NCBI RefSeq assembly: GCF_024298765.1 | Contig: NZ_CP101211.1 | Reading direction: 5' to 3' (one strand) | DNA: 64,000 bases | Source of the DNA: Escherichia coli | GTDB lineage: Bacteria > Pseudomonadota > Gammaproteobacteria > Enterobacterales > Enterobacteriaceae | In this document: positions 18,001 to 21,000 of the stretch, piece after piece | Numbering within the stretch: position 1 is the stretch's first letter | Layout: each line of letters starts with the position of its first letter | Program-made: the position numbers

Positions 18001-21000
18001 AAGTCGCCAGGGCTCTATACGGACCTTACTCATATTCACAACATAACGACAAAGTACAAAGCCCCGATGAAATTCGAGCAACGAGTAACATACATTCTGC
18101 TCAACTTTATCCATTATCTGTGGGCAAGTCTGTTCACTAAGCAGAAGCCTTAGCGCTCTATCATTGGTAAGGCTGTAAAATGTCTGCAAAAGGCCCCATC
18201 GGTAAATTGTTGGGGCTTTTTCTTTGCGTAGTTCTGATACGGTTTATCCTGTGGAGCATTATGGCCACCAGCCAGCTGGTGACTGGCCAACGCTTTGTAT
18301 GACGTAGCCTACTCAGGGCAGGCTATTTTAGAGGGACCGATTTTTATCCGGGCTAATTTAGAAAGAGATAATTTGAACTTAGGCGGGCTGACCACCAGCA
18401 GAGAGGTAAATCACTAGCCGGTGATATTGACAGAAGTCGTCAGGGGTTTAACGCCGGAATATTTTGCCAGGCCTCCTGCAAGGTCTGCAAGACTTCTACA
18501 AGTGATAGTGACGGCCACAGGACTGTTTCCGTCATTATCACTCCAGGTGGCTCGCACTCTACTGGTACCAGAATTAAAACAACACGAGTTCCTTTTACCT
18601 GGTAGGCAAGGTTTACTGCCGGTTGGCGGTAGGAGGCCAGTACACCCTCACCATATTGAGCAGGGTTACTTGCCCAGTTCCGCACCATTGCATACACCTG
18701 AGGCATATACCGACTATCCAGATCCCCTTTGGGCCGTCTGAACGGCACGATTTCTTCTGAGCGGTAGGTGGTCGTTGTTGTATTGGTTGTCATCTTTGTC
18801 ACCTCCCCTGTTCGTCCATTTAGAGTTTTAAGCTGCTTTACACATCACACTCAACTGATTATTTAAGCTGGTCATCGTCTCTGGCCAGCATAGCCCAACC
18901 ATTCGACTGGTTTTCGCGGGAGTAAGGATTCATTTCAAAATAACTATCTACCGCGTCGCTGTCCGCAACAGAACTGTTGTTAGCTCTCTTTGAACCCTGA
19001 ACCACTACAGCATCAACCTCTGCGGCTTTCCCGTTGCGCTGTACCAGGATTTTAACCGTCTTGGGCTTACGTCTTGCGAGCAGTTTGTTGGCGATAAAAA
19101 GCACAACAATCCAGGCCAAAAGCACGTATAAAAATTTATTCATAATGCCCTCCTTTGTATGTGATTATTATACCTGCTTCCATTGCAGGCCAAACAGGTT
19201 CGGTGTATGAAAAATAGACTTCTCTCCGGCGTATAGCAATCTACTTACTGATCTGTTTTCGTATCAAACTGTATGGCATAACCGAGGGGCGTACGTGGTG
19301 AGTCAGAAAGTTACTTTTCCGTAATAGTTAATTTCAGATCCTTCTTCCAGTTACGCTTCAGTATAAAACCGATACCCTCTAATTCAGCATCCTTCACGTT
19401 TAATACGCTTCACTTTAAGGCAGGGCTTTTCGGTTGATATGAATTCTTTTTCCGGTTGCTGGACATGGGTTTCATCCTGATAGTTAAAATTGCAGGCTAT
19501 CAGTCACCACCACCACCTCCTCCTCCTCCTCCTCCACCGCCACCATCACAACCACCAGCTATGCTATTTTCACCATTACAATCACCTCCGAGGGGGTTCA
19601 AATGGCTGCTCCCCTGTAGATGGTGTCCTTGCCAGATCGAACCCGAACCAGCGCCTCCTGAGCGTCTTTGCTTGCCCTGAGGCAATTGTGCAGGCTCACC
19701 AGCACCGGCGGTCCCAAAAATGTCCCGGGCAATTTTATAAAGAAGGTAAAAAGGTACGCCCAGCATCATAAAAAAGATTACTGAAAATATTACACGTTCC
19801 ATTGATGATCTCCTGTCTTGTGAGAGACCAGTTATATCAGGGTGATTCAGTATTTCCGTTTAGAAAAGAGTACTAATTTGGCCCTGTTCGATCTTAATTT
19901 GCCATCCGGGAAAAAGTCATAGGGATAGGCCTGCCAGAGTCAATAACTTCCAGTGATCTGGAGGAGACCCCGGCTCTCTGAGCCCTCATGGATGGTACGG
20001 CTTTACCCCCTGTAAACAGATTCACGTTCCGCAGGACAAACATCGACTACTGACGTCTCATATTTGCTGACGCTAATCCGACGTCTCATTGCCGTCTGCT
20101 TGTTTTCTTTAAAGGGTGTATTAGACGAATATCAAATCGGAATGGTAGGGGATGTGTGGGCACCATGCCCGGCCCTCTTTGAGCATCTGAGAGATTGGAG
20201 ACCTAGCCGGGTAAGATAGCTACTTTCTTACGGGTTACCCTTCAAATCCAAAGACGAAACGGACGCTGCCGTTCTCCACGTGGAGACGCTTTACTTCTTC
20301 GACAAATTCCTGGATCACCTCTCCGGCGTTATCGGGTGGTATGGCTGACAAAATTTCTTCCGAAGTCAGCCATGAGTATGAATGTTCACCGAATAAATCA
20401 TCATCTTCGGACGGTATATCATCAGGTAATCCGCGTAATGCGTGGATAAAAACTGCTGATGTGCTCGCCCTTTCACGATCTACATCAAATCCGAGCCAGG
20501 CAAAGTGGAGATATGATCGGTCCCCTTTATAATTGCTTGATAAATTAATCCATTTACCAGGCTTTTCTTCCCTTTGAAATCGCCAGCAGATATCAACGCC
20601 CATTAAGAAACTCCATTACTATCGTTCGTATGAGATAACTATCATTTCAGAATACTATGACTTCTTCCCGTATAGAACTAATCGCTCACGCCAACTGGGC
20701 GAAGCCAACCGGTTCCGCCACTTCGCTCATTGGTTTTTAGGCGTAAGCACTGAAGCCAGTCTCCATGCTAACTGGCGAGCCTGCGAAAGTCAGACTCGTT
20801 GTTATAAAGCGGCATATCGTAAGCGGTGTCTGAAATGAACATGCGGATCTGCTCAAGCGTCATGCCACAATGAAAACGGTTTACGCTCACATTGGCCCGG
20901 GGGAAGTCAGCACAAAACGCATTCAAAACATTTTCATGGACAATGCCAATGTTGATCAACGCAGCTGGCCCGTTGTCACGGAAGGATACGACACGGAATC

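What the first reader, a model, noticed from the sequence alone, without database searches (positions are those of the whole stretch)
19500..19802. Trinucleotide (NCC)13 tract encoding a poly-glycine tail
A (TCC)6-containing triplet repeat sits at the 3' end of a small membrane-protein ORF. Triplet repeats change length by slippage without shifting frame, so the tail length may vary between isolates.
Basis: seen in the sequence. Interest (0 to 1): 0.33.

Follow-up and report, generated by a model that had tools for sequence, protein, structure and literature searches.

The report
Variable glycine-codon repeat in orphan plasmid gene
A run of 13 glycine codons ends a small, uncharacterised membrane-protein gene on an IncHI2 resistance plasmid, and its length does differ between related plasmids by whole codons, but this looks like an ordinary slippage-prone repeat in a dispensable gene rather than a switch.

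Summary
Window 19506-19544 is (NCC)13 on the + strand. On the coding (-) strand it reads GGT GGC GGT (GGA)6 (GGT)4, followed by GAC and TGA. It closes a 100-aa ORF (19500-19802, -) that has an AGGAG ribosome-binding site.

The window is IncHI2 plasmid backbone, and the ORF is RefSeq WP_000442694.1, 'hypothetical protein'. The protein is predicted to be one N-terminal hydrophobic helix followed by a disordered glycine-rich tail. I found no homologue outside IncHI2 plasmids in 1.84 billion representative proteins, and no Pfam, NCBIfam or PHROG match.

Of 972 complete plasmids, 470 carry the window allele (G13), 426 carry the R478-type G6-D-G5, 16 carry G12, and about 60 carry something else. The other alleles fetched or seen as proteins run from G3 to G16, plus interrupted forms. 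The (GGA) and (GGT) sub-runs change independently, and G12 and G13 are interspersed on backbone haplotypes, so changes recur.

Two alleles still account for 92% of plasmids, every change is in frame, and the gene is split by Tn10 in the prototype plasmid R478. I conclude this is an ordinary in-frame microsatellite in a dispensable orphan gene. A practical side effect is that many short-read contigs end inside the tract. Interest is low.

The parts
19500..19802 (-). 100-aa ORF (RefSeq WP_000442694.1, 'hypothetical protein'): an orphan IncHI2 backbone gene encoding a predicted N-terminal helix plus a disordered Gly-rich tail.
   Evidence: ORF list; PGAP annotation in pSTM6-275 and other plasmids; no Pfam, NCBIfam or PHROG hit; only IncHI2-family homologues.
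19506..19544 (-). The tract: 13 glycine codons, GGT GGC GGT (GGA)6 (GGT)4 on the coding strand, which is (NCC)13 on the + strand.
   Evidence: Length and composition are polymorphic among plasmids.
19518..19535 (-). Perfect (GGA)6 core, (TCC)6 on the + strand. It has 3-6 units in the pure-Gly alleles examined.
19506..19517 (-). Perfect (GGT)4 sub-run. It has 4-10 units in other pure-Gly plasmids and 4-5 in the Asp-interrupted R478-type alleles.
19500..19505 (-). Terminal Asp codon GAC and stop codon TGA, invariant in the DNA alleles fetched. Two database proteins end in E or AD instead.
19737..19793 (-). Codons 4-22 (VIFSVIFFMMLGVPFYLLY), the predicted transmembrane helix.
   Evidence: Hydropathy maximum 2.24 at residue 4; AlphaFold2 helix 2-32 at pLDDT 87-94. 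Invariant in six plasmid alleles; only I9L, plus V4I in one contig, among the divergent homologues.
19810..19814 (-). Shine-Dalgarno AGGAG, 7 nt upstream of the ATG. Conserved in all divergent homologues.
19655..19656 (.). Site after codon 49 where IS10/Tn10 interrupts the gene in R478 and related plasmids (not in this window).
   Evidence: (P0013).

Best explanation
The tract is an imperfect in-frame trinucleotide microsatellite at the 3' end of an orphan IncHI2 backbone gene. It consists of two adjacent perfect sub-runs, (GGA)6 and (GGT)4. The gene most likely encodes a small single-pass membrane protein whose C-terminal two-thirds is a disordered, glycine-rich tail ending in poly-Gly-Asp. 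During plasmid replication the two sub-runs occasionally misalign (slipped-strand mispairing) and gain or lose whole GGA or GGT units. The poly-Gly tail then lengthens or shortens without a frameshift. The changes appear to be tolerated rather than used: the tail is unstructured, the alleles are inherited clonally within plasmid lineages, and the gene itself can be lost. What is shown: the tract, its position in the ORF, codon-unit polymorphism confined to the tract, recurrence of changes, restriction of the gene to IncHI2 plasmids, and its disruption by Tn10. What is inferred: slippage as the mutational mechanism, translation and membrane insertion of the protein, and near-neutrality of tail length.
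For: Tract and ORF anatomy.

Allele series. In seven plasmids the 60-90 nt on each side of the tract are identical apart from one SNP in one plasmid, and all other differences lie in the tract. Pure-Gly alleles are (GGA)6(GGT)4, (GGA)5(GGT)4, (GGA)4(GGT)5, (GGA)3(GGT)6, (GGA)4(GGT)6, (GGA)5(GGT)6 and (GGA)3(GGT)10. Asp-interrupted alleles are G6-D-G5, G6-D-G6, G5-D-G5 and G2-D-G3-D-G3. G9 (30 contigs) and G3 (2 contigs) occur as proteins.

Frequencies in 972 PLSDB plasmids that cover the tract: 470 within one mismatch of the window allele, 426 of the R478 allele, 16 of G12, about 60 other.

Recurrence. Across about 26.6-38 kb of shared backbone, G12 plasmids share no marker that separates them from G13. 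G12 pSDE-SvHI2 and G13 pSTM6-275, both from Australian pigs, share SNP 11976T, SNP 30427C and IS421 and IS150 insertions.

Disorder and helix.

Orphan status.

Dispensability. Tn10/IS10 is inserted after codon 49 in R478. The truncated product is listed on 460 contigs and in 717 blocks of the assembly index. In 44 of 977 PLSDB records the 701-bp region is not in one piece.

Weak coding signal in divergent homologues: 9 of 14 and 7 of 13 substitutions fall at third codon positions, and synonymous to non-synonymous codon changes are 6:7 and 5:8.
Against: There are no expression or proteomic data, and I found no paper that mentions the gene.

The antisense frame (19456-19680 +, poly-Pro) is also open in the four full-length homologues; in the fifth (L009) a 1-bp deletion interrupts both frames. 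It shares its wobble position with the sense frame, so codon-position bias cannot separate the two.

The flanking intergenic DNA is at least as conserved as the ORF, so conservation alone does not prove coding.

The slippage rate was not measured.

Some minor alleles could be assembly or polishing errors. One record has a +1 frameshift and one has a scrambled tract.

Neutrality is an inference from disorder and dispensability, not a test.
Confidence: 0.8

Rival explanations
1. The tract is a contingency or 'tuning' locus. Tail length is selected to vary and modulates the activity or recognition of a plasmid membrane protein, for example in exclusion, host interaction or escape from a defence or phage.
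For: The tail length polymorphism is real and recurrent. All variation in the gene among close relatives is concentrated in the tract. The protein is probably membrane-located.
Against: Unit changes are in frame and at the extreme 3' end, so there is no ON/OFF switch. Perfect runs are only 4-6 units long. Two alleles account for 896 of 972 plasmids from many hosts, countries and years. The gene is destroyed by Tn10 in R478 and in hundreds of assemblies. The tail is predicted to be disordered.
Confidence: 0.07
2. The ORF is not a real gene, or the antisense poly-Pro ORF is the real one. On this reading the tract matters at the nucleic-acid level, for example as a G-rich or Shine-Dalgarno-like (AGGAGG repeats) RNA element, a homopurine tract or a quadruplex-forming tract.
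For: There are no homologues outside this plasmid family. The antisense ORF is open in the four full-length homologues. Intergenic flanks are as conserved as the ORF. (GGA)6 spells repeated AGGAGG.
Against: The sense ORF has ATG plus AGGAG at 7 nt, both conserved. It is the longest frame and has a conserved hydrophobic N-terminus lying outside the antisense ORF. The antisense ORF starts at TTG without a Shine-Dalgarno sequence. There is no Rfam match in the window. There is no unusual RNA stability upstream (z = 0.07) or across the tract and 3' region (z = -0.27). No start codon lies at a useful distance after the Shine-Dalgarno-like run except out-of-frame GTGs that would give a peptide of about 10 aa.
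Confidence: 0.1
3. The apparent length variation is a sequencing or assembly artefact of a G-rich low-complexity tract.
For: Many short-read contigs end inside the tract. One complete record has a +1 frameshift and one has a scrambled tract. Several single-contig proteins carry odd substitutions in the tract.
Against: The same minor alleles recur in independent complete plasmids from different laboratories and countries. G12 occurs exactly in 9 records from at least China, Australia, Bangladesh and Viet Nam. G9 occurs on 30 contigs. The R478 allele is identical in 426 records. Differences are whole codons, and random errors would not preserve that.
Confidence: 0.03

Closest known systems
Coding-region VNTR/SSR loci of Enterobacteriaceae used for MLVA typing, for example the Salmonella Typhimurium STTR loci, including the plasmid-borne STTR10pl on pSLT (from my own knowledge, not tested here)
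   Same: These are short tandem repeats whose unit is a multiple of 3. They change copy number by slippage without breaking the frame, differ between closely related isolates, and have no known functional role for the length.
   Different: Here the unit is 3 nt rather than 6 nt or more. There are only 4-6 perfect units in each of two sub-runs. The tract encodes a homopolymeric poly-Gly C-terminus, and it lies on IncHI2 plasmids. It is much less variable than typing loci: two alleles account for 92% of plasmids.
Phase-variable contingency loci (slipped-strand mispairing in Neisseria, Haemophilus, Campylobacter)
   Same: The mutational mechanism (slippage in a simple repeat inside a gene) is the same, and changes recur.
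   Different: Contingency loci use units or positions that switch expression on and off, with long tracts and high rates. This tract is in frame, 3'-terminal, short and mostly stable.
Glycine-rich ribosomal peptides such as the microcin B17 precursor McbA (a poly-Gly run in a Gly/Ser/Cys-rich core; from my own knowledge)
   Same: It is a small plasmid-encoded product with a long Gly run and a Gly/Ser/Cys-rich C-terminal part (two Cys in DCNGENSIAGGCD).
   Different: The N-terminus is a 19-residue hydrophobic helix, not a leader peptide. No maturation, export or immunity genes were detected among the neighbours. There is no sequence similarity to any family.
Small membrane proteins or type I toxins of plasmids (Hok-like)
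   Same: It has a short N-terminal hydrophobic helix, is plasmid-borne and monocistronic, and has a long conserved upstream region.
   Different: It is 100 aa with a 70-residue hydrophilic tail. No antisense RNA or Rfam match was found and no structured leader. A real Hok gene lies elsewhere on the same plasmids.

Membership tests
Simple sequence repeat (microsatellite) evolving by slipped-strand mispairing | Head-to-tail copies of a 1-6 nt unit, far beyond chance | tested here: met
   (NCC)13 containing perfect (TCC)6 and (ACC)4. TRF and regex. The simulated maximum run was 6 in 200 simulations.
Simple sequence repeat (microsatellite) evolving by slipped-strand mispairing | Copy-number differences in whole units between close relatives, with identical flanks | tested here: met
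   (GGA)3-6 and (GGT)4-10. Flanks are identical apart from one SNP in one plasmid. All in-frame alleles differ by multiples of 3.
Simple sequence repeat (microsatellite) evolving by slipped-strand mispairing | Recurrent, independent changes | tested here: met
   At least seven pure-Gly alleles occur in fetched plasmids, five of them compared on backbones differing at no more than 36 sites in 26.6 kb. G12 and G13 are interspersed on haplotypes. Recombination between plasmids is not excluded.
Simple sequence repeat (microsatellite) evolving by slipped-strand mispairing | Mutation rate elevated relative to non-repeat DNA, measured in culture | not testable with these tools
   This needs reads from cultures or fluctuation assays.
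Phase-variable contingency locus | Repeat-unit changes switch expression (frameshift or promoter spacing) | tested here: not met
   The unit is 3 nt, in frame, in the last 14 codons. The only frameshifted record is a single +1 case, probably an error.
Phase-variable contingency locus | High-frequency, reversible variation within populations | tested here: inconclusive
   At the level of plasmid records, two alleles cover 92%, which argues against high rates. Contig breaks inside the tract could reflect read heterogeneity or poor coverage. No reads were available.
Gly-rich microcin or bacteriocin precursor | Leader peptide, plus linked maturation, export and immunity genes | tested here: not met
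   The N-terminus is a hydrophobic helix. The ORF and nine neighbouring genes gave no relevant NCBIfam or PHROG match, and the ORF and four of those neighbours gave no Pfam match.
Type I toxin-antitoxin (Hok-like) | Hydrophobic toxin of fewer than about 60 aa, with an antisense RNA and a structured leader | tested here: not met
   The ORF is 100 aa. There is no Rfam hit in the window. The upstream 286 nt folds no better than shuffles (z = 0.07).

The most novel reading that the evidence does not exclude
The orphan protein is a functional IncHI2 membrane factor, for example in surface or entry exclusion, host adaptation or evasion of a host defence. Its poly-Gly tail length would then be a selectable, heritable 'rheostat' on a conjugative resistance plasmid: a plasmid-borne contingency locus of the in-frame kind.
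Probability: 0.06. Interest if true: 0.6.

Novelty: new member of a known kind. Interest (0 to 1): 0.17.

Why it matters
Biologically it matters little. It shows that a backbone gene of the clinically important IncHI2 resistance plasmids carries a codon-unit length polymorphism with no evident function.

It has two practical uses. First, the tract gives more alleles than the surrounding DNA, where I found only about 3-18 variable sites in 26.6 kb among the closest plasmids compared. It could therefore serve as a cheap extra marker when tracing IncHI2 plasmids (mcr-1, mcr-9, oqxAB carriers) in outbreaks. Second, it is a reproducible break point in short-read assemblies, which generates many 'partial' protein records in databases.

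If the unlikely tuning hypothesis were true, it would be an example of repeat-mediated variation carried by a conjugative plasmid.

Tried and rejected
**Homology.** Pfam, NCBIfam and PHROGs on the ORF and its neighbours gave nothing for the ORF. A word-indexed search of 5.8 billion proteins and a full HMMER scan of 1.84 billion representatives returned only IncHI2 variants, fragments, frameshifts and low-complexity noise.

**Exact look-up.** The window protein and three allele proteins were reported 'not in the collection', although WP_000442694.1 is annotated on many plasmids. I treated this as a gap in the index, not as evidence.

**RNA explanations.** There was no Rfam match in the whole window. 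RNA stability was unremarkable upstream or across the tract and 3' region.

**Promoters and terminators.** The consensus scan found no convincing site for this gene. By eye there is a weak TTGACT-16-TATGAC candidate about 100 nt upstream of the ATG.

**Codon-position test.** It could not separate the sense from the antisense frame because the two share wobble positions.

**Literature.** I found no paper mentioning this gene or tract. Two IncHI2 papers searched for mutation-related terms reported nothing on it.

**Rejected ideas.**
- Microcin precursor: no leader peptide and no partner genes.
- Type I toxin: wrong size, no antisense RNA.
- Translational coupling from the Shine-Dalgarno-like run: no useful downstream start codon, and the downstream mini-ORF is broken by a stop codon in homologue L008.

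Full report
**1. The observation**

Reading window 19000-20400 shows, on the + strand, ACCx4 TCCx6 ACC GCC ACC at 19506-19544. That is 13 consecutive NCC triplets. Tandem Repeats Finder reports a period-3 array at 19505-57. A regex scan finds no other NCC/GGN run of 5 or more units in the 64 kb window. In 200 Markov simulations the longest run was 3-6.

On the minus strand the triplets are Gly codons in frame with ORF 19500-19802 (100 aa):

MERVIFSVIFFMMLGVPFYLLYKIARDIFGTAGAGEPAQLPQGKQRRSGGAGSGSIWQGHHLQGSSHLNPLGGDCNGENSIAGGCDGGGGGGGGGGGGGD

The ATG is preceded by AGGAG at 7 nt. The finding's coordinates are those of the ORF.

**2. Where it sits**

The 701 bp around the ORF match 977 PLSDB plasmids at 95-100% identity. 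Those inspected are typed IncHI2A/MOBH, and 946 of the 977 are predicted conjugative. Hosts include Escherichia, Salmonella, Enterobacter and Klebsiella.

In pSTM6-275 the ORF is WP_000442694.1, 'hypothetical protein'. It lies 1.3 kb beyond the Tra1 block (mobI, mobH, traD, DUF4400, S49 peptidase, NERD nuclease). It sits inside a run of about ten small minus-strand genes without family assignment, which ends at a ParB-like 394-aa protein.

**3. What the gene product looks like**

Hydropathy peaks at residues 4-22 (Kyte-Doolittle 2.24). Single-sequence AlphaFold2 gives a helix at 2-32 with pLDDT 87-94, and everything after residue 32 below 55. Glycine makes up 39% of residues 30-100. I read this as a single-pass membrane anchor with a disordered Gly-rich tail. 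Topology is undetermined.

There is no Pfam, NCBIfam or PHROG match. Neither the word-indexed search nor the full HMMER scan of 1.84 billion representatives found a relative outside the IncHI2 family. The remaining hits are long low-complexity proteins. The gene is an orphan.

**4. Is it coding?**

*For:*
- ATG plus a Shine-Dalgarno sequence is conserved in all divergent homologues.
- The hydrophobic N-terminus is conserved.
- The frame is open in homologues that differ at 5% of nucleotides.
- Substitutions are biased to third positions (9 of 14 and 7 of 13), with synonymous to non-synonymous codon changes of 6:7 and 5:8.

*Against, or neutral:*
- The antisense ORF 19456-19680 (+), which reads the tract as poly-Pro, is also open in the four full-length homologues. 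In L009 a 1-bp deletion interrupts both frames. The antisense frame shares its wobble position with the sense frame, so codon-position bias does not discriminate. It has a TTG start and no Shine-Dalgarno sequence.
- The intergenic flanks are as conserved as the ORF: 3.3-3.8% divergence against 5.4% for L008.

I accept the annotated sense ORF as the likely gene. Translation remains unproven.

**5. Does the tract vary?**

Yes. An alignment of seven plasmids shows every difference but one flanking SNP inside the tract. The alleles extracted from fetched loci are:

| Lineage | Allele (coding strand, after GGT GGC GGT unless written out) | Tail | Example |
|---|---|---|---|
| Pure Gly | (GGA)6(GGT)4 | G13 | window |
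| Pure Gly | (GGA)5(GGT)4 | G12 | pEC15-MCR-50 |
| Pure Gly | (GGA)4(GGT)5 | G12 | Serratia pQC07_1 |
| Pure Gly | (GGA)3(GGT)6 | G12 | E. coli RHB20 |
| Pure Gly | (GGA)4(GGT)6 | G13 | S. Worthington, S. Derby |
| Pure Gly | (GGA)5(GGT)6 | G14 | pF1022-1 |
| Pure Gly | (GGA)3(GGT)10 | G16 | ETEC1706 |
| R478 type | (GGA)2 GGT GAC GGA (GGT)4 | G6-D-G5 | R478 |
| R478 type | same with (GGT)5 | G6-D-G6 | Lelliottia SL45, ERR1822337 |
| R478 type | one GGA fewer | G5-D-G5 | S. Heidelberg, C. freundii |
| Divergent | GGT GGC GAT GGA GGA GGT GAC GGT GGC GGT GAC | G2-D-G3-D-G3 | SRR26673770 contig |

Protein clusters add G9 (30 contigs), G3 (2 contigs), a G-to-A variant on 54 contigs, and single-contig variants with V, R, E or C in the tract. 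Some of the single-contig variants may be errors.

Independent change of the GGA and GGT sub-runs is what slippage in two adjacent perfect repeats would produce.

**6. How often?**

I used 158-161-bp queries centred on the tract, so that a 3-bp gap falls below 99% identity. Of 972 plasmids covering the region:

| Allele (within one mismatch) | Plasmids | Call |
|---|---|---|
| Window allele G13 | 470 | 22 |
| R478 allele G6-D-G5 | 426 | 35 |
| G12 (9 exact) | 16 | 36 |
| Other | about 60 | by subtraction |

Each of the two main IncHI2 lineages is therefore dominated by one allele, and about 8% of plasmids carry a minor allele.

**7. Recurrence**

I compared about 26.6-38 kb of backbone from five G12 plasmids (China x2, Australia, Bangladesh, Viet Nam), five G13 plasmids and the G16 plasmid.

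- No SNP separates G12 from G13.
- G12 occurs on the consensus haplotype (pXH990_1), on 11855T (three plasmids) and on 11976T (pSDE-SvHI2).
- pSDE-SvHI2 (G12) shares 11976T, 30427C and the IS421 and IS150 insertions with pSTM6-275 (G13). Both come from Australian pigs.

At least two independent G13/G12 changes are the simplest reading. Recombination between plasmids is the alternative, and the marker set is small. The G16 allele sits on a more divergent backbone (36 variant sites in 26.6 kb).

**8. Dispensability**

In R478 itself an IS10 end (CTGATGAATCCCC...) follows codon 49, with tetC and other Tn10 genes beyond it. The resulting 64-aa product (P0013) is listed on 460 contigs and in 717 blocks of the assembly index. 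R478 is, from established knowledge, the self-transmissible prototype of IncHI2. The intact gene is therefore not needed for maintenance or transfer under laboratory conditions.

**9. Mechanism and rivals**

*Best explanation (confidence about 0.8):* an ordinary in-frame SSR in a dispensable orphan membrane-protein gene. Slippage adds or removes Gly codons in a disordered tail, with little or no consequence.

*Rivals:*
- A tuning or contingency locus (0.07). The variation is real and recurrent. However, it is in frame and 3'-terminal, the runs are short, and two alleles dominate.
- A non-coding or antisense reading with an RNA- or DNA-level role (0.10). It is not excluded formally. It is not supported by Rfam, by folding or by start-site anatomy.
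- An artefact (0.03). It is contradicted by the same alleles appearing in independent complete plasmids.

**10. Comparison with known things**

The tract behaves like coding-region VNTRs used for typing enteric bacteria, but it is shorter and less variable. It fails the defining test of a phase-variable locus because unit changes do not switch expression. It resembles the Gly run of McbA only superficially: there is no leader peptide and there are no partner genes. I found no description of it in the searchable literature.

**11. Verdict**

The feature is a new instance of a well-known kind. Interest is low (0.17). Its practical value is as a plasmid sub-typing marker and as a known assembly break point.

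Noticed in passing
L011-L014 (contig ends), corresponding to window 19506-19544: Many public short-read contigs stop inside the tract. 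For example, L011 ends ...GGTGGCGGTGGAGGAGGAGG. Partial proteins of 86-94 aa ending in the tract sit on 23-205 contigs each. The cause (read heterogeneity or loss of coverage and quality in G-rich sequence) was not determined.
   Followed up: partly
L017 (R478) 2659-4033; L015 3148-3260; corresponds to window about 19656: In the prototype plasmid R478 and many assemblies the ORF is split after codon 49 by IS10/Tn10. The 3' fragment, including the tract, remains as unannotated DNA.
   Followed up: yes
window 19144-19499 and 19803-20075: Both intergenic flanks of the ORF are as conserved as, or more conserved than, the ORF in divergent homologues. They contain short direct repeats: GACGTCTCAT at 20052-20061 and 20080-20089, and TGAAGCGTA (minus strand) at 19352-19360 and 19404-19412. 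There was no Rfam hit and no unusual folding, so their function is unknown.
   Followed up: partly
window 19456-19680 (+): An antisense 74-aa ORF reads the tract as 13 prolines and stays open in the four full-length homologues (interrupted only in L009 by the same 1-bp deletion that breaks the sense frame). It shares wobble positions with the sense frame, has a TTG start, and has no Shine-Dalgarno sequence.
   Followed up: partly
window 18440-24857 (-): A run of about eleven small minus-strand genes lies downstream of Tra1. The ten scanned have no family assignment except a ParB-like 394-aa protein (23081-24265) and weak PHROG hits of unknown function for the 122-aa ORF at 20235-20603. The next gene downstream (18859-19143) also begins with a hydrophobic helix.
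   Followed up: partly
window 63013-63915: There is a tandem array of about 11 copies of an 81-bp unit (also scored as period 243). A 2.5-kb query spanning it matches 1247 PLSDB plasmids, mostly at 80-90% identity and in several places per record. An ISKpn18 transposase is annotated within the matched region. Possibly iterons or a centromere-like array; not examined.
   Followed up: partly
L031 (pAGR6137a), corresponds to window 19545-19560: One plasmid has a 3-bp deletion just upstream of the tract that changes AGGCD to AGFD and removes the second of the protein's two cysteines.
   Followed up: no
window 5075, 10375, 13294: At these three backbone positions the window differs from all eleven plasmids compared, so the window's plasmid has private SNPs.
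   Followed up: no
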